A stretch of 64,000 nucleotides of DNA from a virus (Duplodnaviria; Caudoviricetes): IMG/VR virus record IMGVR_UViG_3300042445_001485; one strand, written 5' to 3'. A program made the translations under genes and the position numbers. The notes beneath the pieces are model-generated. The model worked only from the letters and a program-made list of their open reading frames with translations, ran no database searches and had not been told where the DNA came from. Of this stretch, positions 12,742-48,007 are shown one piece after another; position 1 is the first letter of the stretch, and each line of letters begins with the position of its first letter.

Positions 12742-13203
12742 TTATTTTCGACCAATGTCAACCGGTATACTCAATGCTTTTAATCGTTGCAATACCGCAG
12801 GCTTGATTTCCTCAGGGTAATCAATGATGTTTACCAGTTTGATGTATTGATTAGTAAAAGGAATCGCTTGTGCAATTCGTTCTTCTTCTTCTCCGGTTGC
12901 TGGTCCACCTGTATAACCCGGTAAGTTACTTTGCCAAGCATGACTTTGGACATTGGCTAGTTTTCTCACGGCTCGGCCATCAACTGTGATCATTACAGAG
13001 TTGGCAAGATCATTGAAATGGTACCAGTCTGGATTTCTTGTTAAACTTACATTACCGTAGTCACTATAATCAAAATCAGGATCAACATTGTCAGCACCGC
13101 TAACATCCAGCTTGCCACTGCGAACCATACCATTTAACCCTTGTGTAGTAGTTTTGTGGTAAAGTAGATCGGTTGATTCTGTTAGAATTTCATTTATACG
13201 CAT
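12742..13203 (-). CDS. ADP-ribosyltransferase-like fold protein (putative)
   Basis: LYHKT and VSLTR strands typical of ART folds; MRINEILTES N-terminus; TAAATA-N4-ATG. Confidence 0.5.
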   Translation of the reverse strand: MRINEILTESTDLLYHKTTTQGLNGMVRSGKLDVSGADNVDPDFDYSDYGNVSLTRNPDWYHFNDLANSVMITVDGRAVRKLANVQSHAWQSNLPGYTGGPATGEEEERIAQAIPFTNQYIKLVNIIDYPEEIKPAVLQRLKALSIPVDIGRK

Positions 13204-13224
13204 CTAGTATTTATTACACCAGAT

Positions 13225-13761
13225 TCAATCATAACTGTCAAGTTTCAAATCTTTCAAATGATCCAATGCTTCAGCATAGGCAACTTGGTACAAACTCACA
13301 CTTAAAATATATCTAGGTTGGTCGGTAGGATTTAATACTGCATGTGGATGTTGTGTGTTAAAAAGCGTAGCTCCTAAGAATGTGTAGTCACAAACTACTA
13401 TACCGTGATTCATTTTATTAAATGAATGATCTTTAAACATGGTAACTGCCCCAGGATTCTCGCTAACAACATAGTTGATACAGCATTGTCTTGTTCCGTA
13501 TTTTACACCACTTAGATCACAATGCCAATCATAAAAACTGTAGGGTTCATTTCTAAAAAAAGTAACAATTGTGGTTGAAAACTTTTTTGACAGGTCATTT
13601 ACAAAGTTGGTACCTTGAAACTTTATACAGGAAGCCAAGGTAATTTGATTGGGTTTCTTGTGTTCCTCTGGAAAAAAATACTTGGCTCGTTTTGCCAAGT
13701 CTGTATATTTCTCCGATAACTTTGGTAAATTTGGTAAGTGATGAAAATAATCATGTTCCAT
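13225..13761 (-). CDS. HxD...H cupin / 2OG-Fe(II) oxygenase-like protein
   Basis: YDWHCD ... PHAV; similar in layout to 10374-10916. Confidence 0.7.
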   Translation of the reverse strand: MEHDYFHHLPNLPKLSEKYTDLAKRAKYFFPEEHKKPNQITLASCIKFQGTNFVNDLSKKFSTTIVTFFRNEPYSFYDWHCDLSGVKYGTRQCCINYVVSENPGAVTMFKDHSFNKMNHGIVVCDYTFLGATLFNTQHPHAVLNPTDQPRYILSVSLYQVAYAEALDHLKDLKLDSYD

Positions 13762-14275
13762 TGAGCTGTCCTTGATAATGTTTAATCAACGAAAACGGAT
13801 CAGTGTTGTTTAATCCCACCGTTATAGCAGACCGTTCTGTCTTGATTCCTTTGACTGAATGTAGCACACGAGTATTCAGTATATGCCACCTACTGGGCTC
13901 AATGCATACACTTTCAAGTATATTTAATTTGGCATATTCTGGAATTTTGACCCTGGGCTCTCTCGAAACAGGTTGTCCGGGCTGTTGCCAAAGTGTAGTG
14001 GTCACGGTTGGTCCACCAGTGTTGATTATATAGTTTATTGCCCATAATCTTTTATCACAGTGAGCATTAACATCTTCCGAAATAACCTGATACCCTGCGA
14101 GATCGACATCACTACTGATATTTTCAGCAAGCCAAGATTTTAATTCAGGATGTACGGCCCATCGTGCATAGCCGGCATCTTGGAATCCAATTTGAGTCGG
14201 GTCTGGTATGTAAGGATTCTTCAATAATTCTTCAGGAATCCTGGGCAGTTGATCTAGATATTGGAATAGAATCAT
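13751..14275 (-). CDS. HxD...H cupin / 2OG-Fe(II) oxygenase-like protein
   Basis: NAHCD ... WAINY ... LHSV. Confidence 0.7.
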   Translation of the reverse strand: MILFQYLDQLPRIPEELLKNPYIPDPTQIGFQDAGYARWAVHPELKSWLAENISSDVDLAGYQVISEDVNAHCDKRLWAINYIINTGGPTVTTTLWQQPGQPVSREPRVKIPEYAKLNILESVCIEPSRWHILNTRVLHSVKGIKTERSAITVGLNNTDPFSLIKHYQGQLNGT

Positions 14276-14814
14276 AATATTAGTATATCTTCTAGATTTT
14301 GTTTTTCAAATCCAATTGTACAAGTAATTCTCGGTTCTAAACATTTAGGATTAATAACCACGCCGTGACAAATTTTAGTATTGAATACCATTGGTCGTAA
14401 TAATTCAATTGACTCAATTTCTTTTAGTGGAAACTTTCTCTCTGGTTCTAGATATGATTCTCGCCCCTGGTGTCTTTGAATTTTGTTGCCGTTTGTATCA
14501 TAAAATTTTGTATAACTGCCTGCACAATTAATCACCGGCCACAGCACTCGGTGTATGTGCTTACCAGTATCGAGATGGACAGGACCGTTTACCAAAGGCT
14601 CCCACCGCAAAATTGTTATCATGTTTATTTTTGATTTTATAACCTTGGCAAGCTCTTCTTCCAATTCAGGCACAAAATCTAATACCGATTCGGCATTTGC
14701 AGTAGTCCAACCCCATCTGTTAAATAACTCACTGTTTTCTGTGACATATTGATAAAGTTTATCAGAAATTAGTTGTTGTTGATCTACATCTAGAAATTTA
14801 TAAATTCGACGCAT
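14272..14814 (-). CDS. HxD...H cupin / 2OG-Fe(II) oxygenase-like protein
   Basis: PVHLD ... CHGV; start at ATG 14814, 4 nt after TAAATA. Confidence 0.7.
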   Translation of the reverse strand: MRRIYKFLDVDQQQLISDKLYQYVTENSELFNRWGWTTANAESVLDFVPELEEELAKVIKSKINMITILRWEPLVNGPVHLDTGKHIHRVLWPVINCAGSYTKFYDTNGNKIQRHQGRESYLEPERKFPLKEIESIELLRPMVFNTKICHGVVINPKCLEPRITCTIGFEKQNLEDILIL

Positions 14815-14832
14815 TAGGTATTTATAAAAAGG

Positions 14833-14863
14833 AAAAAGGCACACTTGAAAAAGGTGCCTTTTT
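14833..14863 (-). terminator. intrinsic terminator
   Basis: aaaaaggcac...gtgccttttt. Confidence 0.7.
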
Positions 14864-14886
14864 AAAGAGGGACAAGCCCTCTGTGC

Positions 14887-15222
14887 TTACTCAGCAATCA
14901 CTTCTTTAGTGGACTTGGTAGCACGAGCTTTGATAGCTTCCATGCTGGGCTTTGCGGCCTTGCCCTTGGTAACTTTGACCACGCCATTGTACTTGGCATC
15001 AGCCATGTCGATGGCCTCACGGTATGCAGGGTTTGCATACAGGTCGTGGGTCTTAAGGAACGCAACCAGGGCTGGCTTGTCCATTGCAGTTGGCAATTCA
15101 AACAGCTGGATATCGCTGTCAGTTTTTGCCAAGATCTTGACACGAGTTGTATCAGTTGCAAAGCGAACCTTGTAACCACCTTTAGATTTACTAACACCAC
15201 CGACTTTGAAAAGTTTAGTCAT
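14887..15222 (-). CDS. basic hypothetical protein
   Basis: 111-aa ORF with GGAG Shine-Dalgarno and strongly biased codons; Lys/Ala-rich C-terminus. Confidence 0.75.
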   Translation of the reverse strand: MTKLFKVGGVSKSKGGYKVRFATDTTRVKILAKTDSDIQLFELPTAMDKPALVAFLKTHDLYANPAYREAIDMADAKYNGVVKVTKGKAAKPSMEAIKARATKSTKEVIAE

Positions 15223-17528: not shown

Positions 17529-19037
17529 ATGGCTATTTCAACTCGTTTCCTTATTGATTTTCCTCTCACACCAAATCTTAGTATTACAGATACAGGTCAG
17601 GAAGGCATGCCGACCTACAACCATGATACCATTGATCGACGAATCAACGCTGTTGCGTCGGGCTTAACCCGTTTAAATTTTCCAGACAATAGTAGAATTA
17701 CAATTATAGATTATCTATCATATAATTTTGTTACATTCAACGTCGGCGTATACCGAGCCAGGCATACCATAGCACCGATTAATTTTAAACTTTCAGCCGA
17801 ACAGGTTGAACATTGTATTAGAGATTCGGGTTCTGTAATAGTTTTTTGCAATCAACATTTTACACATCTTGTACCACCTGGTATGAAATTTATTGTGTTT
17901 GATTCAACAGAATTCAATGATTTTTTAGGAGACGAGAATTTTATTCCCGTTCCACCTTCTACTAATTATGAAGATTTTGAAAATAGAAATGTAACAATGA
18001 TGTACACTTCGGGAACAACCGGTAATCCCAAAGGGGTAGTAAATAATTATAGAAATAGATTTTTTCAAATCAGCCGCGGAATTGACAATCCCATTGTCAA
18101 ATATAAACGATTGGTTTCGTTGGCTCCATTACCAATATATCATTTAGCAGGACTTAACAATATCGAGCAAGATATGTTTTTTAGTTATTCTGAAGAAACA
18201 CAGATTGTACTAATGCCACATTTTGATACTAAAAAATACATACAACACGTACAGGATTTTAAAATAACAAGATTGCGACTAGTCTCACCAATGATGGCTA
18301 TGGTTCTTCAAGAAACAGAATTACTAGAAAAAGCTGATTTTTCTCGCGTGGTAGGAATTGCATTAAACTCAAGTTTTGCTCCAAAGAAAATGCAAGATGA
18401 CATAAGAAAATACTTTAAAGATTTAAAATGGTTAGACAATCCCTACGGTTTAACGGAAACAGGTCCACTGTTTGGAAAAGAAAACCCCAGGAACTTGCCT
18501 AAACCGATGATGAGTGTGGGATATCCGCTGCCGGAGGTTAGTTGTCGTATTAACAAAGATAATGTACTCGAAGTTAAAGCACCAGCGTGTTTGTCTCAAT
18601 ACCATAATAGACCCGAGTTACAGACTTCGTTTACCGACGATGGATATTTTATCACAGGTGATTTATTTAGAGTTAACTATAATGGATTTTATTTTTACAT
18701 GGGTCGTGCCGATGACATGTTTAAAAGTGGTGGTGAAAAAATCTATCCATCTGAAATTGAACCAGTTATTGAACGCCACCCCGGTGTTGCGCTAAGTACG
18801 GTAGTGGGTGTAGAAGATGAAATCAAAGGGCATAAACCATATGCATTTGTAGAGCTCAAAATCGGAGCCAAAGCCACAGCCGAAGAAATTAAACAGTTTA
18901 CCATTGAAAATGTTGCAACATATCAAATTCCTCGTCGAGTATGGATTTTAGATTCATTGCCGAGAACCAACATAGGCAAGATTGATCGCAAAACATTAAA
19001 AAATCTTGCCATTGATCTTTTAAAGGAAAATACATGA
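17529..19037 (+). CDS. acyl-CoA synthetase / AMP-binding (ANL) enzyme
   Basis: YTSGTTGNPKG, YGLTETGP, TGDL, GRADDMFKSGGEKIYPSEIE, PRTNIGKIDR. Confidence 0.95.
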   Translation: MAISTRFLIDFPLTPNLSITDTGQEGMPTYNHDTIDRRINAVASGLTRLNFPDNSRITIIDYLSYNFVTFNVGVYRARHTIAPINFKLSAEQVEHCIRDSGSVIVFCNQHFTHLVPPGMKFIVFDSTEFNDFLGDENFIPVPPSTNYEDFENRNVTMMYTSGTTGNPKGVVNNYRNRFFQISRGIDNPIVKYKRLVSLAPLPIYHLAGLNNIEQDMFFSYSEETQIVLMPHFDTKKYIQHVQDFKITRLRLVSPMMAMVLQETELLEKADFSRVVGIALNSSFAPKKMQDDIRKYFKDLKWLDNPYGLTETGPLFGKENPRNLPKPMMSVGYPLPEVSCRINKDNVLEVKAPACLSQYHNRPELQTSFTDDGYFITGDLFRVNYNGFYFYMGRADDMFKSGGEKIYPSEIEPVIERHPGVALSTVVGVEDEIKGHKPYAFVELKIGAKATAEEIKQFTIENVATYQIPRRVWILDSLPRTNIGKIDRKTLKNLAIDLLKENT

Positions 19038-19804
19038 CATTTAACGCATGGGACACATTGGAAGGTAAAACTGCTGTGATAACCGGTGTTACCGGAGGAA
19101 TTGGGTTTGCTACCGCACAAAGACTTGCCAGACGCGGAGCCCGAATAATTGGTATAGTCAGAAGAAATTTAGAAGATGCACAGGCTAAATTAAACACATT
19201 ACCATGTAGTAGTAAAGAACCTCATCTAGCATTACTAGCAGATGTATCCAACAAGGTTCAACTACAAGAAGCAATTCTATCCATTGATCGTTGCGATATA
19301 TTGGTACAAAGCACTGGCAATACCAAAAGAATTCCACACGAAAAAATTCAGTTAATGACTGATACCTACTTTGATGAGATGACCAGAGATAACCTAAGAA
19401 GTTATTTTACTGTTATAAGGTCGTTTGAACCATTGCTGAGAAAAAGTCGAGAATCTGTCGTTGTCAATATTGGATCTGTTGCGGGCAATGCACACAGCGC
19501 CGGGGGCGGCAGCAATATTGCCTACTGTGCCGCCAAAGCCGGACTTGATGCATTGACTAGAAATTTATCCAAGGCATTAGCGCCAGACATTCGTGTGGTT
19601 GGTGTTAGTCCCGGTATAGTAGATACTACGTTTGTTACCAAGGCCATCGACAACTACCCTAATTTAGAGTCAATTGCCAATAGCACTCCACTTAAACGAA
19701 TTGCCACAGTAGAAGATATAGCGGCAAATGTAGAAGCTTTAACTACCTTAATGAGATATTCCACAGGCATTGTAATCTGTGTAGACGGAGGAAGAACCCT
19801 ATGA
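19034..19804 (+). CDS. short-chain dehydrogenase/reductase (SDR)
   Basis: TGVTGGIG Rossmann motif, YCAAK catalytic YxxxK, VSPG. Confidence 0.95.
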   Translation: MTFNAWDTLEGKTAVITGVTGGIGFATAQRLARRGARIIGIVRRNLEDAQAKLNTLPCSSKEPHLALLADVSNKVQLQEAILSIDRCDILVQSTGNTKRIPHEKIQLMTDTYFDEMTRDNLRSYFTVIRSFEPLLRKSRESVVVNIGSVAGNAHSAGGGSNIAYCAAKAGLDALTRNLSKALAPDIRVVGVSPGIVDTTFVTKAIDNYPNLESIANSTPLKRIATVEDIAANVEALTTLMRYSTGIVICVDGGRTL

Positions 19805-20694
19805 TCATCAGACCAGAAAAAACTATTATGACTTGCGCCATTACTGGCGCCATCACAGATCCCAATTCAACACCGTATTTGCCAATCAGTCCAGAAGAGA
19901 TAGCAGATAGTGCATTAGGTGCCGCAGAAGCAGGAGCCTCAATAGTGCATTTACATGTTAGAGATCCTGCAACTAAAATGGCCAGCATGAGCACCGAACT
20001 GTATATAAAAGTAGTTGAGATGATCAAAAAAGACAATCCAGATCTTATTATCAATTTGACCACAGGTCCTGGAGCACTATTTGTTCCCGGTGCTAGACTA
20101 TTGCAAGTTGGTGAAAAAAGTAGTGTCATGAGAAGTGCTAGACAGAGAACCGAACATATAACTGAAATTAGACCAGATATCTGTAGTTTTGATTTCAATA
20201 CCATGCATCATGGCGGACCAAGTATTCGTTTAAATTTTATGCCTGTGCTAAGAGAAATGGCAGTTATTATTAAAGAAGCAGGAACCAAACCTGAACTTGA
20301 ATGCTTTGACTCCGGAGATGTTAGAATTGCCATGCAGTTGCAAAAAGAAGGTTTAATTGAAGAACACCCGCTGTGGCAGTTTGCAATGGGTGTCAAATAT
20401 GGATGGGATAATACTCCCGAGGCATTAAACTATGCCCGATGTGCGATACCACACGGTTCGTTATGGTCGGCGTTTGGTATCAGTCGGGAAGAAATGCCAA
20501 TGGTGGCCAATACTTGGTTGTTAGGCGGGCATGTTAGGGTTGGTCTCGAAGACAACATTTACCTAAGTAAAAATGTGTTGGCAAAAACCAATGCTGAGTT
20601 AGTTACCAAAGGTCGTCGTGTTGTTGAGGATTTGGGTGGTCAGTTGGCCAACTATGCAGAAGCTAGGGCAATATTAAATCTCCCTAGCAAGTAA
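19801..20694 (+). CDS. beta-keto acid cleavage enzyme (BKACE / Kce / DUF849)
   Basis: TCAITGA, P-SPEEIA, AGASIVHLHVRD, GGHVRVGLEDN. Confidence 0.95.
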   Translation: MIIRPEKTIMTCAITGAITDPNSTPYLPISPEEIADSALGAAEAGASIVHLHVRDPATKMASMSTELYIKVVEMIKKDNPDLIINLTTGPGALFVPGARLLQVGEKSSVMRSARQRTEHITEIRPDICSFDFNTMHHGGPSIRLNFMPVLREMAVIIKEAGTKPELECFDSGDVRIAMQLQKEGLIEEHPLWQFAMGVKYGWDNTPEALNYARCAIPHGSLWSAFGISREEMPMVANTWLLGGHVRVGLEDNIYLSKNVLAKTNAELVTKGRRVVEDLGGQLANYAEARAILNLPSK

Positions 20695-41572: not shown

Positions 41573-42356
41573 TATTGTAGATAAACTCAGCCTCGGGTAT
41601 GCGAGTTCGCCCGTCTTTACTGCCCAACACAACAACACGGCGTAATCCTCGTTCTGTTTCTACAGTTAAAACAATGCACCCACCGGCAGCATTTGTGGTT
41701 CCTGTTTTACTTACTATGAACTTATGTTTATGTCCTATTAGGGGATTGGTCTGTTTGAATACTAGCCACTTCTTTTTGTTTTTTATTGTAACCTTAGTCT
41801 TGCCGGCGGCACCAACAATTAAGTAATTTTTTTCGGCTATAGTTAATAGCTTTAACAGGTCTTCGGCTGTGCTGACATTACCAGACGATAAACCCGATGC
41901 ATCTGCAAATCGAGTATTTTCTAATCCGTATTTAATTGCCAGGTCGTTCATTGCTTCTATGCATTTTTTATAACCGCCCAAGTAGTTGTTACACAACACA
42001 TCTGCGGCATGATTGTCACTGCGTACCAATGTTATTTCTATCAACTCCTGCCTTGTTAGTCGAAGTTTTTTATTGTAAGTCAGATGTTGATCCATTAAAG
42101 GACGAGATTCCATTACAGCCAATACAGTCATAATTTTGGTAATACTACCAATGGAACGAACTGTTGTGGTATCTTTACTGGCCAAGATTCGATTGTCGGC
42201 ATCGGCCACAAGCCAGCTTTGTGCAGTGAGATCATTGGTATCAGTGATCAATTTGGCTGTTGCTGTGGTTGCCAAGGAAACAACCACCCATGTGATCCAT
42301 TTCTTCAGCAATGTTAAATTTCCAATTGGTCTATATTTTTTCTTATGTGATCCCAA
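41565..42356 (-). CDS. D-alanyl-D-alanine carboxypeptidase/endopeptidase (peptidase S11); true start probably about 42310
   Basis: SxxK (SITK), SxN (SDN) and KTG motifs; N-terminal signal. Confidence 0.92.
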   Translation of the reverse strand: MGSHKKKYRPIGNLTLLKKWITWVVVSLATTATAKLITDTNDLTAQSWLVADADNRILASKDTTTVRSIGSITKIMTVLAVMESRPLMDQHLTYNKKLRLTRQELIEITLVRSDNHAADVLCNNYLGGYKKCIEAMNDLAIKYGLENTRFADASGLSSGNVSTAEDLLKLLTIAEKNYLIVGAAGKTKVTIKNKKKWLVFKQTNPLIGHKHKFIVSKTGTTNAAGGCIVLTVETERGLRRVVVLGSKDGRTRIPEAEFIYNTN

Positions 42357-43021
42357 ACACCTGTGGGATTACCATCTTCGAATGTAATAGTAGTGCCAAC
42401 CACATATCTGAAGCCGTCGCCCTGTATAACATGGTGAGCCAACTCTGTTCTTACCAGGGCACTGGGGCATGTAGTAACCGATGAAAATGCAGGTTTGGGT
42501 ATGTTATCCCAGGAGATCTTGCCTTGATGTAGATCTTCTACAAAATCAGCTATGCCTTTGACCCGAATAGGACCTGGGCGCAATGCCAAAGTAATTTTTA
42601 CATCATCTTCACTCCACCAACGAATTGCACCCGGACCGTCGCATAGTTCATAAAACGACATCCTTGCTTCTAATGTTGATACAGTATTGTTCAATCGATC
42701 TTGTTCGGTGAAGTATCCATCTTTGTGTACTGTCCATCCTGTTTGGTTTTTGTTACTTACAAAAGATGTCAAGTTGCGGCACACCAGGCCAATCGGGTTG
42801 AGAAATTTGTTACAGATTGCCAATGTTTTTTGCCACTGTGCTGGGTTTGCAGGCAATACCACATGTCCAACTTTTATATATCCATACTGTTCTCTTAGCT
42901 GGGCAACCGTGGTGTTAATTGCTAGTTCGCGTTCTTCAGGATCAATTCGAAACTGTAACGGTATAAAGTAATCTAAATTGCGTTTAGGCAACTGTGTAAA
43001 ATCATAATCTATGTTGAGCAT
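42314..43021 (-). CDS. HxD...H cupin-like protein, tandem copy 2
   Basis: WTVHKD ... AHHV; TAAATA-N4-ATG. Confidence 0.75.
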   Translation of the reverse strand: MLNIDYDFTQLPKRNLDYFIPLQFRIDPEERELAINTTVAQLREQYGYIKVGHVVLPANPAQWQKTLAICNKFLNPIGLVCRNLTSFVSNKNQTGWTVHKDGYFTEQDRLNNTVSTLEARMSFYELCDGPGAIRWWSEDDVKITLALRPGPIRVKGIADFVEDLHQGKISWDNIPKPAFSSVTTCPSALVRTELAHHVIQGDGFRYVVGTTITFEDGNPTGVWDHIRKNIDQLEI

Positions 43022-43040: not shown

Positions 43041-43760
43041 CTAAACTGCCAATTGGTCTATATTTTTTATAATATGGTCCCATACCCCAATTGGATTACC
43101 ATCATCAAATGTAATAGTGAATCCAACAACATATCTAAAACCATCACCTTGTATAACATGATGTGCTAAATTTGTTCTTACTAATGCACTGGGACATGTG
43201 GTCACTGATGAAAATGCAGGTGCTGGTATTTCATTCCAGGAGATCTTGCCTTGCTGTAGATCTTCTACAAAATCGGCATTGCCTTTGACTCGTCTTGGGC
43301 CAATCATTAACCCAGAGTTCACTTCTAGATTAATTTTCACATCATCCTCACTCCACCAACGAATTGCACCCGGGGCTGTAGATAGTCCATAAAATGATAT
43401 CCTTGCCTCCAACGATGAAATTGTGTTGTTTAATCGATCATCATTGGTAAAGTATCCATCTTTGTGTACATTCCAGGCTGTTTGATTTTTGTTGCTGACA
43501 AAGACTGTCACATACCGACTTGCAAGTCCAATTGGATTAAGAAATTTGTTGCAAATTGCAAGGGTTTGGGTCCAGTCGGCCATATTGCCAGCTGACCCAT
43601 AATGACCAGTTTTCTTATGACCTTGGCTTGCTATTGCCCGAGGGACTGTGGTGTTGACTGCTGTGGCATACTCTGCGGGATCTGGCTGCAGATCCATTGG
43701 TATAAAGTAATCTAAATTGCGTTTAGGCAACTCTGTAAAATCATAATCTATGTTGAGCAT
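43041..43760 (-). CDS. HxD...H cupin-like protein, tandem copy 1
   Basis: WNVHKD ... AHHV; TAAATA-N4-ATG. Confidence 0.75.
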   Translation of the reverse strand: MLNIDYDFTELPKRNLDYFIPMDLQPDPAEYATAVNTTVPRAIASQGHKKTGHYGSAGNMADWTQTLAICNKFLNPIGLASRYVTVFVSNKNQTAWNVHKDGYFTNDDRLNNTISSLEARISFYGLSTAPGAIRWWSEDDVKINLEVNSGLMIGPRRVKGNADFVEDLQQGKISWNEIPAPAFSSVTTCPSALVRTNLAHHVIQGDGFRYVVGFTITFDDGNPIGVWDHIIKNIDQLAV

Positions 43761-44401
43761 TGAATATTTAGTTGTTGTACAAAGTCTAAAAGTAATGCGT
43801 GATGTTGCCCATTATGATATCGGTCTCGCATCCATGAGTAACTGTCATACCAAAATTCTTCGCTTTCAGGATGGCAACCAATCAAACCGATATTGTTTTG
43901 TATGATGGCCATGCTGTCACCGTTGGCGTAGGTGGCAATGGTTTTAAATCGTCTATGATCTCCGGTCAAGGTACATCCATCATACCAAAACATATTGATA
44001 GGTTGTCCTTGCCAGGTGATGGGCATGTTCTTGGCATGTGGTCTACGAGTGTCTGAGCCTGGGCGTTTTAAATACTGCACAGCATCAACACCGTCTAAGA
44101 TATCAAGGTAATAACTACCGGCCCAGTATGCACCCATACATATACCCAAATATCTACCACCCTGTTTGACAAATTTTTTCACAGCCGACATGTTGTGTTT
44201 GAACCCAACATCAAAACTGGCTGCGTCTCCAAATCCCCCCGGAACTGCAACTATATCAACATCATCAAAGAAGTTATCTTCAATTTTGTTCTTGCTAAAG
44301 ATTTTGAAATTATAATGATTTTGTAAGGCTCGGATTATGCCATTACCCGACTGTACAGAGCATTTTGGATCATACAAAAATAACGCAATGGTGGGTTTCA
44401 T
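43748..44401 (-). CDS. BPL-N-like class I glutamine amidotransferase-fold protein
   Basis: VPGG, GGRYLGICMGAY (nucleophile Cys), GCHPE. Confidence 0.85.
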   Translation of the reverse strand: MKPTIALFLYDPKCSVQSGNGIIRALQNHYNFKIFSKNKIEDNFFDDVDIVAVPGGFGDAASFDVGFKHNMSAVKKFVKQGGRYLGICMGAYWAGSYYLDILDGVDAVQYLKRPGSDTRRPHAKNMPITWQGQPINMFWYDGCTLTGDHRRFKTIATYANGDSMAIIQNNIGLIGCHPESEEFWYDSYSWMRDRYHNGQHHALLLDFVQQLNIQCST

Positions 44402-44433
44402 GTTTGAATATCAGTGTTTCTGTATTTAGTCAT

Positions 44434-44460
44434 AAAAAAACGGGCCTAAGCCCGTTTCTT
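44434..44460 (-). terminator. intrinsic terminator
   Basis: Minus strand aaacgggc-ttag-gcccgttttttt. Confidence 0.85.
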
Positions 44461-44472
44461 CAATAAGCCATA

Positions 44473-45429
44473 TTAGGCTTGCTTACGGATAGCATCAACC
44501 AATCCTGGTGTGAACATGTCACGGAACTGATCATAAACTACAGCAGTTTGTGCTTTGGCCCAAGCCAATTCTTCTGTGCTCAAAGGTTGAATCTTTGCAC
44601 CTTCGGCAGTTAGCTTTTGCTTGGCAATTTCGCCATCACGGATTGTTTCTAAACGCTCTTCACGCCCGGCTTCAATTGCGGCCTGCTTGATAACAGCCTT
44701 GACCGCAGGGCTCAGACTTTCCCAGAAACGGTCACCAATGATCATAGTGGTCAAGAACAAACTGTGTTCTGTGTCTAACACAGTCTTGGTAACAGCATTT
44801 TGACCCAATGGGTAAATACGTGGATAATTAGTTTCTGCACCTTCACAGTTACCAGCTGTCATGTTGTCTACGATTTCTTCTAGTTCGCAAACAAATGGGT
44901 TCAATCCCAATGCACGGTAAGTTGCTTGTGCGACTGGGTTACGGTTGCTACGCTGTGTAGTTCCAGCCAACTCTGCCAGTGTACTGACTTCTTTGTTGGA
45001 AATCATTTGACGGAAACCACCCGAGTATGTGTAGCTCAAGCCACGAACATTGCTCTTTTCTTTCAATTTGGCCAACAAGCCTTCGCCAACTTCGCCTTCT
45101 AACACGCGAGTTGCGTGGTCATGACCTGCAAAGATGTATGGCAAATCAAATGCCAACATGTCTTGCTCATAGTGTTCAGCCAACCATGTGGTGTACATTT
45201 GGCTCATTTCAATCTTGCCTTGATCCATTAGATCTAACAAGTCGTGTTTTGTAACCAAGACGCCATCGTTATACTTGTGACTGTATTCAGTCAAAGTCAT
45301 GATTTCAACTTGAACTTTTTCGCTGTCATTGCTGATAGCGGCATTCAAGTGGTCTTGGAAGTCTTTGGCGGCACGAACAAATAGATTTAGTGGCTCGTGT
45401 GCGATTACCCAGCGGATTTTTGTAGTCAT
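44473..45429 (-). CDS. dctP: TRAP transporter DctP-family solute-binding protein, lacking a signal peptide
   Basis: FDLPYIF, GGFRQ, R-x-x-x-N-P, G-x-E-x-N-Y, HSLF; GGAG Shine-Dalgarno before ATG 45429. Confidence 0.85.
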   Translation of the reverse strand: MTTKIRWVIAHEPLNLFVRAAKDFQDHLNAAISNDSEKVQVEIMTLTEYSHKYNDGVLVTKHDLLDLMDQGKIEMSQMYTTWLAEHYEQDMLAFDLPYIFAGHDHATRVLEGEVGEGLLAKLKEKSNVRGLSYTYSGGFRQMISNKEVSTLAELAGTTQRSNRNPVAQATYRALGLNPFVCELEEIVDNMTAGNCEGAETNYPRIYPLGQNAVTKTVLDTEHSLFLTTMIIGDRFWESLSPAVKAVIKQAAIEAGREERLETIRDGEIAKQKLTAEGAKIQPLSTEELAWAKAQTAVVYDQFRDMFTPGLVDAIRKQA

Positions 45430-45444
45430 ATATGGTTTCTCCAT

Positions 45445-45569
45445 TTAAAATTTAGTAAGGGTTTGCAAGCGTTCTAGGCATTGTATGCTAGTAAAAGGGT
45501 CTCTACCCTAAGCGTTTCGACAGCGTCGTCGTCGTCAACATTGCGTTGGCGTTTGCATAATAATATTTA
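45445..45569 (-). promoter_or_regulatory. structured leader with short uORFs upstream of dctP
   Basis: TAAATA, uORFs MQTPTQC* and MLTTTTLSKRLG*, hairpins agggt/accct and ctagcat/atgcctag. Confidence 0.45.
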
Positions 45570-45588: not shown

Positions 45589-45888
45589 TTATATACTGAT
45601 GCCAAAGCGCAACAATGTTGATTGTTCTCCTGTACCAATTATGCAGGCCATGGTATTGGTATATTCAATCAGAGTCCAGGTCTGAGTTTTGGGATTAACA
45701 AGCATGGTAAATTTGGTTTCGGCGCCCGAGCCGTTCCATTGCGGTTCTTCGCCGTAAGTCTTGGTTATTTGTTCTACAATCATACTAAATGTACCACAAA
45801 CAACTGGTTTGTTAAGTTGAACTATAGATTGGGCGTTTGCTACTGAGCCATACAAGCAGAATAGGAACGCCATTGCTAATCTTCGCAT
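45589..45888 (-). CDS. small secreted hypothetical protein
   Basis: Signal peptide, Cys pair, AAGGAG Shine-Dalgarno. Confidence 0.75.
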   Translation of the reverse strand: MRRLAMAFLFCLYGSVANAQSIVQLNKPVVCGTFSMIVEQITKTYGEEPQWNGSGAETKFTMLVNPKTQTWTLIEYTNTMACIIGTGEQSTLLRFGISI

Positions 45889-45910: not shown

Positions 45911-48007
45911 TTAAAAACGCATCATTCCCCGTATAAACCAATTGTTAGTGGCTATATCGTCTTTTTGCTGTCTACTTGCATACACACCAATCGATTGATC
46001 TCGTGCTGGACTAAAAGCAACTCCTACTTCGGTATTTCTATATCCGTTGCTGGTACTAGATACATCACCCGATACGGTAAACTCATCAATTGCTTTTGCT
46101 ACACGCACACCTGCTTCGGCATAACCTGTGGAATTATTAACACCATCTATAGTTCTAGCACTTTGTATATCGCCTGACTCAGTATAACCGTTTCTGCGTG
46201 AAGTACCAAAAGTGTAGCCCACATAAGGGCGTACTTCTGCGGATTCTACGGGCAAGGTTGGTACATATAATCTGTTGCTAATCCAGGTGTCTGTGCCATT
46301 GGTTGTGTATGCATTGTTGAACAATCCACCAACACTACGATTTGTGGCTATATTGTTTCTAGCATGACCCAAATTGGTTGCCAATATATGCCCGTCATCA
46401 AATGTATAGATGCTGTATAAACCTGCCGCAACTTTGCCTTGTGTGGTTGTGCTGTCAGTGCCGGTCATTGTGGTATTGAATTGACTGTATTGAGCACCAA
46501 CACGCCAATTTGGTTCAACTTTAACATCGCCACCAATGTTGTACATGTTGCTGGCAGCACCATAGCCGTCGCCCGCGCCAGTTGTTTGTCTACCACCGCG
46601 AATAAAGAAACTCTTTTGACCATCTTCGCTTTTGTAAACATCCATACGGAACGGATCCATGTTTAAACTGCGATTAATACCTGTGTTAAGGACGGACAAC
46701 TTGGCCTGTTGGTCAATACGACCACTGAAACTGTCATTGACCACTGCGGTATCCACATTGTTTTCTACCGTGACTATACTGGTAGGAGCCGCATCAGTGA
46801 ATGTAGTGGTACCATCACTCCATGTAGATGTGGTACGAACCCGAGTTGTCACTGTACGATCATATGGTGTTGTGGTATTTGTAGTTGTTTCTCTACCAAC
46901 AGTCTGTACTGTGGCAGTTTCACCCGGAGTATGATGCGCCAGGCTGGCAATGATGACCGGAAATGAGGTATTAATAGTTCGTGTGTCGGACACTGCAATG
47001 GTTGATGTTGCTGTGCTTACCACTGTAGGAGAACTACTACCGCCAGTTGCCGCCGCATCAGTTGCTGAACCAACATCAGTTAAAGTGCCGCCACCTGGAA
47101 CAGAGCCTGCCGTGCCGCCACCTGCACCTCCGGTTATGGCATAGTTAGCCGCGCCAAAAGCGTTTGGTCCGAATATGTAAGCATACTGAAAGTTAACTAT
47201 GTCACCAGGTGCTACATTGTTTACTAGAAAGCCAAGCCCGATTGTAACATCACCGCGACCGTAGTCTACGGTAACACCACCTGATGTGTATGGACTGTAC
47301 CCGTTGTAGTATATCACCGGGTTAGTGGTCCAATTGTTGGCGTCACCACCAATACCTGCGCCCACATTTGCGGCCGCACTATACAGGCCCAGGGCATAAC
47401 GACTGGTTGTGGCTTCAGCGAAGGCCACATTTGTGCGTGGGATGGCACCGTAGCCCAACACATTGTCTGTGGCACTGGTATCACCGGTCATGGGCATGGC
47501 GTCTGGATCAATGAAACGACCAAAGTACAATCTGCCTATAGCAACACTAGCGGTAATGCCGGTGTTGATGTTGATGTAGCGTTGACCGCTGGGTAAACTA
47601 TAGTTATTTGTGATGGTGAAGTCGCTAGTAGAGGCACTCCATATGGCACCGGCGGCTGTGGGTGTTCCAACCCAGGCGCCGGTTGTGATACTTCTAGCAC
47701 CATTATTGTTGTTTGTGTATGTACTAACTAGTGTTCCGCTACTGTCTTCTAAACGAACAGTAAAGCCTTCAAAAGGTGAACCGGGTGTTAGGTAGTCACC
47801 TTGACATGTATCGCACGGAAATGTACCGGTACCAGTGTTGTCGTACTGTAGACCGGGACGAGTACTACCACCTGAGCCCAAGGTACCAGTAGATAGGTTT
47901 ACACCTGCACGAACATATTCGTTTTCAATTATGACATTTTGTGATATGGCTGTGGTGGCCACGAAGACAGAGAAGGCCGCGAGGGCCTTCGAAAAATAAT
48001 AGCGCAT
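45911..48007 (-). CDS. autotransporter-like outer-membrane protein
   Basis: Signal peptide, Thr/Gly/Ser-rich passenger, about 270-aa C-terminal amphipathic beta-barrel ending in Phe. Confidence 0.8.
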   Translation of the reverse strand: MRYYFSKALAAFSVFVATTAISQNVIIENEYVRAGVNLSTGTLGSGGSTRPGLQYDNTGTGTFPCDTCQGDYLTPGSPFEGFTVRLEDSSGTLVSTYTNNNNGARSITTGAWVGTPTAAGAIWSASTSDFTITNNYSLPSGQRYININTGITASVAIGRLYFGRFIDPDAMPMTGDTSATDNVLGYGAIPRTNVAFAEATTSRYALGLYSAAANVGAGIGGDANNWTTNPVIYYNGYSPYTSGGVTVDYGRGDVTIGLGFLVNNVAPGDIVNFQYAYIFGPNAFGAANYAITGGAGGGTAGSVPGGGTLTDVGSATDAAATGGSSSPTVVSTATSTIAVSDTRTINTSFPVIIASLAHHTPGETATVQTVGRETTTNTTTPYDRTVTTRVRTTSTWSDGTTTFTDAAPTSIVTVENNVDTAVVNDSFSGRIDQQAKLSVLNTGINRSLNMDPFRMDVYKSEDGQKSFFIRGGRQTTGAGDGYGAASNMYNIGGDVKVEPNWRVGAQYSQFNTTMTGTDSTTTQGKVAAGLYSIYTFDDGHILATNLGHARNNIATNRSVGGLFNNAYTTNGTDTWISNRLYVPTLPVESAEVRPYVGYTFGTSRRNGYTESGDIQSARTIDGVNNSTGYAEAGVRVAKAIDEFTVSGDVSSTSNGYRNTEVGVAFSPARDQSIGVYASRQQKDDIATNNWFIRGMMRF

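What the first reader, a model, noticed from the sequence alone, without database searches (positions are those of the whole stretch)
44473..45444. TRAP DctP solute-binding protein with no signal peptide and no transporter partners
DctP proteins are normally periplasmic and work with DctQM. This ORF starts directly at the first beta-strand (MTTKIRWVIAHEP) with no hydrophobic leader, whichever ATG is used, and there is no dctQM in the window. A cytoplasmic binding protein could act as a metabolite sponge or sensor, for example sequestering a carboxylate, amino acid or defence signal (inference).
Basis: partly seen in the sequence, partly recalled or inferred. Interest (0 to 1): 0.6.

Follow-up and report, generated by a model that had tools for sequence, protein, structure and literature searches.

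The report
Cytoplasmic transporter-type binding protein in phage
A giant lake-water phage carries an intact, strongly conserved copy of a bacterial nutrient-binding protein that normally works outside the cell membrane. This copy has no export signal and no matching transporter, and it belongs to a large, undescribed signal-less branch of the family, shared with predatory bacteria, that most likely binds an organic acid inside the cell.

Summary
The gene lies on the minus strand at 44473-45429. The real start is the second ATG, giving 318 aa. It encodes a full-length DctP/TRAP-type solute-binding fold (Pfam E 2.6e-43; AF2 pLDDT 97; TM 0.87 to IseP). A stop codon sits directly before the ORF and there is no hydrophobic leader, whereas neighbouring phage genes have classic signal peptides. 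The window holds no polytopic permease. Five related phage records have no DctM, and neither do 4 of 5 bacterial genomes that carry relatives.

The new point is that this is not an oddity of one phage. The 119 closest database clusters are all leaderless. In the tree a 78-row clade (local support 96) is essentially all signal-less. The phage clade is sister to Bdellovibrionota genes that sit in MFS permease / small 2OG-Fe(II) oxygenase / leaderless DctP operons, with the last two genes translationally coupled.

The phage genes share a conserved, covariation-supported 85-nt leader RNA with exported binding proteins, porins and dioxygenases.

Best reading: a cytoplasmic organic-acid binder coupled to uptake and oxygenase chemistry. 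The ligand is unknown, and there is no evidence for an anti-defence role.

This scan had already noted signal-less phage DctP genes on other DNA (e1-5374597, e1-5965162). I rate it a new variant of a known kind.

The parts
44473..45429 (-). CDS of the leaderless DctP-like binding protein (318 aa, MTTKIRWVIAHEP...). The ORF as listed runs to 45444, but the first ATG is probably not used.
45439..45442 (-). Shine-Dalgarno GGAG, 9 nt before the ATG at 45429. It lies inside the five extra codons of the longer ORF call.
   Evidence: all relatives have GGAG/AAGGA at the same spacing
45465..45558 (-). Conserved three-hairpin leader RNA in the 5' UTR, with no Rfam family. Linkers GCAACGCC / AGACGCTT / TTTTAC / AACGCC are invariant or nearly so.
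45564..45569 (-). TAAATA, a T4-type late-promoter core a few bases before the leader RNA, conserved in relatives. The late-promoter assignment is an inference.
44431..44457 (-). Intrinsic-terminator-like hairpin AAACGGGC-TTAG-GCCCGTTT plus a T run, 16 nt after the stop. The gene looks like a self-contained transcription unit.
   Evidence: read from the sequence; the consensus scan did not list it on this strand
13751..14275 (-). Distant homologue (27% identity in the alignment) of the small HxD...H 2OG-Fe(II) oxygenase that is translationally coupled to leaderless DctP genes in Bdellovibrionota. Here it is unlinked (30 kb away), so it belongs to the finding only tentatively.
17529..20694 (+). 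Acyl-CoA ligase, SDR and BKACE trio. Homologues (BKACE 54-58% identical) flank leaderless DctP genes in three Bdellovibrionota loci. It is unlinked here and BKACE is absent from the 317-kb relative, so the association is weak.

Best explanation
The gene encodes a stand-alone, non-exported member of the DctP (TRAP P-subunit) fold that stays in the cytoplasm of the infected cell and binds a small organic anion. It does not serve a DctQM membrane unit. It belongs to a signal-less clade that works with other partners: a secondary permease (MFS, or TctA in some phages) brings the compound in, the cytoplasmic binding protein captures it, and it is passed to or held for tailoring enzymes, above all a small 2OG-Fe(II) oxygenase. 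In the phage it is one of a set of uptake and modification cargo genes, each with a TAAATA promoter core and the same structured leader RNA.

Shown: the fold, the absence of a leader, the absence of DctQM, the clade structure, the gene linkage, the shared RNA and purifying selection.

Inferred: cytoplasmic location, ligand binding, the capture and hand-off role, and late timing. The ligand is unknown.
For: Fold and pocket: Pfam and NCBIfam hits. AF2 pLDDT 97, pTM 0.93. Full-length Foldseek matches to TRAP binding proteins, TM 0.80-0.87. By alignment, R140 and R160 correspond to SiaP R127 and R147, and both are kept in the phage protein.

No leader. 119 of the 120 closest clusters carry the motif; 113 start 4-6 residues before it and 6 have short non-hydrophobic extensions.

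Internal controls: TctC genes next to the homologues in the same phages all carry MKKLL...A-x-A signal peptides, and other window genes do too.

No DctQM.

Clade: a 78-row, essentially all-leaderless clade (local support 96). The phage clade (100) is sister (99) to L016-L021 and L039.

Linkage: MFS / 2OG oxygenase / DctP-like operons with a divergent Crp-type regulator. The oxygenase stop and the DctP start overlap as TAATG. The oxygenase fold is supported by Z 9.9-7.5, with nearly all of the top 50 hits being 2OG oxygenases, plus HxD...H...R motifs.

Shared leader RNA: found before DctP-like, TctC, TctA, NMT1 and SBP_bac_8 binding proteins, a porin, and TauD-type and small oxygenases.

Selection: dN/dS 0.07-0.21.
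Against: No ligand, localisation or interaction data exist. The canonical Arg (R160) is present in only about 56% of leaderless clade members, so the chemistry may vary across the clade. In this window the gene is not next to any permease or oxygenase; its neighbours are a small secreted protein and a GATase-like gene. The link to those partners therefore rests on relatives. The partner sets differ between lineages: MFS plus oxygenase, BKACE/SDR/ligase, or PP-loop enzyme plus TctC. The leader RNA precedes very mixed cargo, so it may mark mobile cassettes rather than a functional regulon. The tree is FastTree only, with midpoint rooting.
Confidence: 0.5

Rival explanations
1. The binding fold has become an enzyme, as in THI5 or MqnA/MqnD-type proteins, catalysing a step on an organic acid in the cytoplasm.
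For: The location is cytoplasmic and there is a tight operon link to enzymes. Subfamily-specific invariant polar residues exist: H11, T134, S136, R204.
Against: The same invariant residues are equally conserved in the signal-peptide-bearing, exported members of the subfamily. They therefore look like pocket residues for binding, not a cytoplasm-specific catalytic set. H222 and E258-R259 also align with identical residues in the canonical binder 4ovs. The model superposes over its full length on ordinary binding proteins.
Confidence: 0.12
2. The protein works on the cytoplasmic side of a permease in the opposite direction, loading a product of the oxygenase onto an MFS exporter, or it acts as a ligand-sensing regulatory subunit of an enzyme or permease.
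For: The order MFS / oxygenase / binding protein is equally compatible with synthesis followed by export. MFS proteins include many exporters.
Against: In phages the co-regulated genes are uptake-type parts: exported binding proteins, a porin and TctA. No biosynthetic core enzyme is conserved next to it.
Confidence: 0.15
3. It is a sponge for a host signalling or defence molecule, lowering its free concentration during infection.
For: It is a stand-alone cytoplasmic high-affinity binder encoded by a phage. Phage sponges for nucleotide signals are a known strategy (own knowledge).
Against: Close leaderless homologues sit in chromosomal metabolic operons of Bdellovibrionota with a Crp-type regulator. 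The pocket keeps the carboxylate-type arginines. No defence or anti-defence gene is linked. I did not run PADLOC on this protein.
Confidence: 0.08
4. It is exported after all by a route that needs no N-terminal signal (for example hitch-hiking on a Tat substrate, or release at lysis) and feeds the host's own DctQM.
For: The fold is complete and the arginines are intact. The host could have DctQM; the host is unknown.
Against: The leaderless state holds across essentially the whole 78-row clade and is under purifying selection, while adjacent phage binding proteins use ordinary signal peptides. Four of five bacterial genomes with relatives have no DctM at all.
Confidence: 0.05

Closest known systems
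DctP-type TRAP solute-binding proteins (PF03480; e.g. SiaP, DctP, IseP 8t9t/8te9, EFI structures 4ovs, 4p47)
   Same: Same two-lobe fold with the long spanning helix over the whole length (TM 0.80-0.87). Same family by sequence. The arginine pair that grips the acid group is kept.
   Different: No signal peptide or lipobox and no DctQ/DctM. Only 17-24% identity. Subfamily hallmarks not seen in canonical members: W-[VL]-[IL]-A-H-E-P at strand 1, T-Y-S-G-G, and R204.
Orphan Bug/TctC binding proteins of Bordetella and other Betaproteobacteria (review PMC5812351)
   Same: Binding proteins of a binding-protein-dependent secondary-transporter family that greatly outnumber, or lack, adjacent membrane partners. 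TctC-type genes are neighbours and leader-RNA co-members in the related phages.
   Different: Bug proteins are a different family (PF03401) and are exported. The orphans described in that review are periplasmic.
Cyanophage PstS (phage-encoded phosphate-binding protein; own knowledge)
   Same: A phage-carried binding protein used as auxiliary metabolic cargo.
   Different: PstS is exported and plugs into the host PstCAB transporter. The protein here cannot be exported by Sec and has no cognate transporter type.
Cytoplasmic substrate shuttles such as PhuS/ShuS, which take haem from the importer to haem oxygenase (own knowledge)
   Same: The proposed logic is the same: a soluble cytoplasmic binder between an importer and an oxygenase.
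   Different: Unrelated fold and ligand. This is an analogy only and was not tested.

Membership tests
DctP family (PF03480) as a protein fold/sequence family | Significant match to the family profile | tested here: met
   PF03480 E 2.6e-43, 148.8 bits against a cut-off of 23.4. NF037995 scores 123.5 bits against a cut-off of 50. TIGR00787 is below its cut-off (109.8 against 175).
DctP family (PF03480) as a protein fold/sequence family | Two-lobe Venus-flytrap fold with the long C-terminal spanning helix | tested here: met
   AF2 pLDDT 97. Foldseek gives full-length matches to 8t9t, 4p47 and 4ovs, with TM up to 0.87.
DctP family (PF03480) as a protein fold/sequence family | Conserved arginine that binds the substrate carboxylate (SiaP R147) and its partner (R127) | tested here: met
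   R160 and R140 by alignment. Across the leaderless clade R160 is present in 31 of 55 members only.
TRAP transporter P subunit (functional membership) | N-terminal signal peptide or lipoprotein anchor for export | tested here: not met
   A stop codon directly precedes the ORF. The maximum hydrophobicity is 0.91, against 2.4-2.9 for exported window proteins. The same holds in all 119 closest clusters. No SignalP run was possible.
TRAP transporter P subunit (functional membership) | Cognate DctQ/DctM membrane genes | tested here: not met
   None in the window. None in 5 related phage records. None in 4 of 5 bacterial genomes with relatives. The phage's full genome and its host could not be searched.
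TRAP transporter P subunit (functional membership) | Delivers ligand to DctQM in the periplasm | not testable with these tools
   Needs localisation and transport assays.
Binding-protein-fold enzymes (THI5/NMT1, MqnA/D) | Cytoplasm-specific catalytic residues absent from binding-only relatives | tested here: inconclusive
   The conserved polar residues are shared with exported members of the subfamily. No catalytic motif could be defined.
Phage anti-defence sponges | Similarity to a known sponge family or linkage to defence/anti-defence genes | not tested
   I ran no PADLOC or viral-structure search on this protein. The context argues against membership.

The most novel reading that the evidence does not exclude
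A so-far undescribed way of coupling transport to metabolism: a secondary permease, a stand-alone cytoplasmic 'receiver' protein derived from TRAP binding proteins, and a small 2OG-Fe(II) oxygenase act as one unit. This unit evolved in Bdellovibrionota-like bacteria and was taken up at least twice by giant freshwater phages, which express it under a new structured leader RNA that may sense the same metabolite.
Probability: 0.3. Interest if true: 0.75.

Novelty: new variant of a known kind. Interest (0 to 1): 0.6.

Why it matters
TRAP binding proteins are taken to be extracytoplasmic by definition. The 2018 TRAP/TTT review describes orphans only among exported TctC proteins, and four full-text searches found no description of signal-less DctP proteins. 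This report shows a large, selected, signal-less branch with its own partners.

If these proteins really bind ligands in the cytoplasm, that would add a new role for the fold and a new class of phage metabolic cargo. It would also give a simple experimental handle (protein plus ligand screen) on what organic acids giant lake phages make their hosts take up and modify.

The shared leader RNA is a candidate new regulatory RNA.

Tried and rejected
- No whole genome is held for the window.
- **Phage isolates.** Megablast of 12 kb against isolated phages found nothing. tblastn found only weak matches of 23-28% identity.
- **Rfam.** No family matched the leader region. The only hit was a chance-level rsmX match elsewhere.
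- **Neighbour proteins.** Sequence searches of PDB for the three conserved neighbour proteins gave nothing usable. Foldseek for the 204-aa partner was weak; only the VIA wide search resolved it.
- **BKACE as an obligate partner: rejected.** It is absent from the 317-kb relative.
- **Capsid-targeting leader: considered and dropped.** The N-terminus is strand 1 of the fold and has no L/I-x-E cleavage motif.
- **Thr-codon attenuator uORF (e1-5411754): not supported.** The uORF exists only in the window and L001. The ACG run lies in the variable loop of hairpin 1, while the hairpins covary across 59 distinct sequences.
- **Pocket-level ligand prediction: not attempted.** Model coordinates cannot be read in the script box.
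- **Pfam on window genes.** Scans of window genes 12742-15222 and several others gave no family.

Full report
**1. What is there**

The ORF lies on the minus strand, 44473-45444. It matches Pfam DctP (PF03480, E 2.6e-43), NCBIfam TRAP_S1 and the uncharacterised phrog_31178.

A TAA stop directly precedes the first ATG, so nothing can be added upstream. The first ATG (MEKPY-) is probably not used:
- The second ATG (45429) has GGAG 9 nt upstream.
- Every relative starts 4-6 residues before the motif I-R-W-V-I-A-H-E-P, with a Shine-Dalgarno box at the same spacing.
- In the 95%-identical relative L001 the first ATG is followed by an in-frame stop.

The protein is therefore 318 aa and begins at strand 1 of the fold. 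Its N-terminal hydrophobicity maximum is 0.91. Five exported proteins of the same window give 2.4-2.9, including the gene just upstream (45589-45888) and the autotransporter at 45911-48007.

An intrinsic-terminator-like hairpin follows the stop (sequence). dN/dS against nine relatives is 0.07-0.21.

**2. The fold is complete and ordinary**

AF2 with a 134-sequence alignment gave pLDDT 97 and pTM 0.93. Foldseek against PDB aligned the whole chain to TRAP binding proteins. The best hits were IseP 8t9t (TM 0.87), 4p47 and 4ovs, at 17-24% identity. PDB sequence hits start at E 8e-24.

By alignment, R140 and R160 correspond to SiaP R127 and R147, the acid-binding arginines. R160 is present in 31 of 55 leaderless clade members.

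Subfamily-specific, nearly invariant residues are W7, H11, P13, T134, S136, G137, G138 and R204. They are shared by exported and leaderless members alike. This argues for a binding pocket rather than a cytoplasm-specific catalytic site.

**3. No DctQM**

No window ORF has more than four predicted TM segments. PF06808 (DctM) is absent from five related phage records, including one of 317 kb rated 89% complete.

Of five Bdellovibrionota genomes that carry relatives, four have no DctM at all although each has 1-2 DctP hits. The fifth has one canonical TRAP locus elsewhere.

**4. A large signal-less clade**
- The word-indexed search gave more than 1300 hits. The 119 closest clusters (66-95% identity, 316-335 aa) are all leaderless, and one is annotated from an 'uncultured Caudovirales' contig of 332 kb.
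- The exhaustive search gave 5403 hits. The nearest 35-42% identical representatives split about evenly between leaderless forms and forms with classic signal peptides.
- A FastTree of 179 rows, with leaders trimmed off, shows a 78-row clade (local support 96) that is essentially all leaderless. The three rows scored 'SP' in it are over-extended ORF calls.
- Within that clade the phage clade (17 rows, support 100) is sister (support 99) to leaderless genes of Bdellovibrionota and Gammaproteobacteria MAGs (L016-L021, L039).
- A second phage group (L012-L014) sits elsewhere in the leaderless clade. Signal-bearing forms are basal or in the other half of the tree.
- Cellular members found in one-genome-per-species contigs are overwhelmingly Bdellovibrionota, with some Myxococcota and Elusimicrobiota.

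**5. Partners**

In related phages (L002-L011) the gene follows a 394-aa gene and one or two TctC-type binding proteins. L007 also has a TctA permease and an MFS transporter beside it. The TctC genes all have MKKLL-type signal peptides, which serves as an internal control for the missing leader.

In Bdellovibrionota the closest leaderless relatives form the operon MFS permease / 200-aa protein / DctP-like, with a divergent Crp/Fnr-type regulator and ordinary chromosomal surroundings such as flagellins, CobS and a DEAD helicase.

The 200-aa protein has invariant H-x-D, a distal H and an Arg. Its AF2 model (pLDDT 87) matches 2OG-Fe(II) oxygenases in nearly all of the top 50 rows of the wide structural search (Z 9.9-7.5: proline 3-hydroxylase, AspH, ALKBH7, PHDs). 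Its stop overlaps the DctP-like start (TAATG) behind AAGGAGG.

Phages carry homologues of this oxygenase next to the module (L002-L004, L006). The window has a distant one at 13751-14275.

A second cellular context (L024, L025, L063) places the gene beside BKACE, SDR and acyl-CoA ligase genes. Their homologues lie at 17529-20694 of the window (BKACE 54-58% identical). BKACE is missing from the 317-kb relative, so this link is weaker.

Signal-bearing subfamily members sit next to acyl-CoA ligase (AMP-binding) genes and ABC transporter genes with NMT1-type binding proteins, again not DctQM.

**6. Shared leader RNA**

The 145-nt spacer upstream holds a conserved element (window 45465-45558, minus strand) just downstream of TAAATA. 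RNAalifold predicts three hairpins, and 13 of 19 pairs show compensatory changes.

A covariance model built on 11 copies found further copies before a TctA-like gene, a secreted 276-aa protein and two TctC genes.

A pattern scan of IMG/VR followed by the model gave 69 hits at E <= 1e-3. On 59 distinct sequences, 96.4% of cells pair and 14 of 19 pairs have changes on both sides. No shuffle and no slid register comes close.

The downstream genes are:
- 28 leaderless DctP-like genes, down to 39% identity to the window's
- 7 TctC genes
- NMT1-like and SBP_bac_8 binding proteins
- a porin
- a TauD-family dioxygenase
- the small 2OG oxygenase
- a desaturase-like membrane protein
- a hexapeptide transferase

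Rfam has no match. The uORF with four Thr codons proposed for this spacer (e1-5411754) exists only in the window and L001. Its ACG run lies in the variable loop of hairpin 1.

**7. Reading**

The evidence shows an intact, selected binding fold that is not Sec-exported and has no TRAP membrane unit. It belongs to an old leaderless clade whose members are genetically tied to secondary permeases and 2OG oxygenases.

I infer a cytoplasmic binder of an imported organic anion that buffers it or hands it to tailoring enzymes. Context suggests candidate ligands only: 2-oxoglutarate or succinate, tricarboxylates, sulfonates, and carnitine-type hydroxy acids.

The rivals cannot be excluded, but each fits less of the data:
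- enzyme
- donor to an exporter, or regulatory subunit
- signal sponge
- unconventional export

**8. Prior knowledge**

The TRAP/TTT review describes orphan binding proteins only for exported TctC/Bug proteins. Four full-text searches found no description of signal-less DctP proteins in bacteria or phages.

Earlier agents of this scan noted signal-less, sometimes split, phage DctP genes and the upstream RNA on other DNA. I re-derived the RNA independently.

I added the following points:
- the leaderless clade structure
- the Bdellovibrionota operon
- the translational coupling
- the oxygenase fold
- the absence of DctM in the cellular genomes
- a wider cargo list for the leader

**9. Limits**
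- No SignalP run was possible.
- The tree is FastTree with a midpoint root.
- MAG contigs may be mis-binned. The Polynucleobacter and Methylococcaceae contigs look like phage DNA.

Noticed in passing
window 45465-45558 (-); also L006:8789-8878, L007:8862-8950, L010:8743-8831, L033:5816-5904 and 69 IMG/VR hits: Uncatalogued three-hairpin leader RNA downstream of TAAATA, with strong covariation. It is shared by very different uptake and oxygenase cargo genes of giant freshwater phages. It could be a riboswitch or a cassette leader; this is unresolved.
   Followed up: partly
   Followed up: no
window 17529-20694 (+): Acyl-CoA ligase, SDR and beta-keto-acid cleavage enzyme (BKACE) form a plus-strand island in a minus-strand region. 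The BKACE is 54-58% identical to Bdellovibrionota genes that flank leaderless DctP genes.
   Followed up: partly
L015, L027, L033, L037 (MAG contigs labelled Methylococcaceae and Polynucleobacter): These short MAG contigs share phage genes with L013 and L007 or carry the phage leader RNA (L015 is one of the copies the RNA model was built from). They are probably phage DNA binned with a bacterial genome, which may hint at the host.
   Followed up: partly
L028-L052 (Bdellovibrionota loci): Signal-peptide-bearing members of the same DctP subfamily lie next to acyl-CoA ligases and to ABC transporters with NMT1 (TauA/SsuA-like) binding proteins, in genomes without any DctM. Even the exported forms may not be TRAP components.
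   Followed up: partly
window 42314-43021 and 43041-43760 (-): Two tandem paralogous genes (235 and 239 aa, both starting MLNIDYDFT) with no Pfam family. They are followed by a class-I glutamine-amidotransferase-like gene (43748-44401) just downstream of the DctP-like gene.
   Followed up: no
window 45911-48007 (-) and 45589-45888 (-): The phage encodes an autotransporter beta-domain protein with a signal peptide and, next to it, a small secreted protein. Both lie immediately upstream of the DctP-like unit.
   Followed up: no
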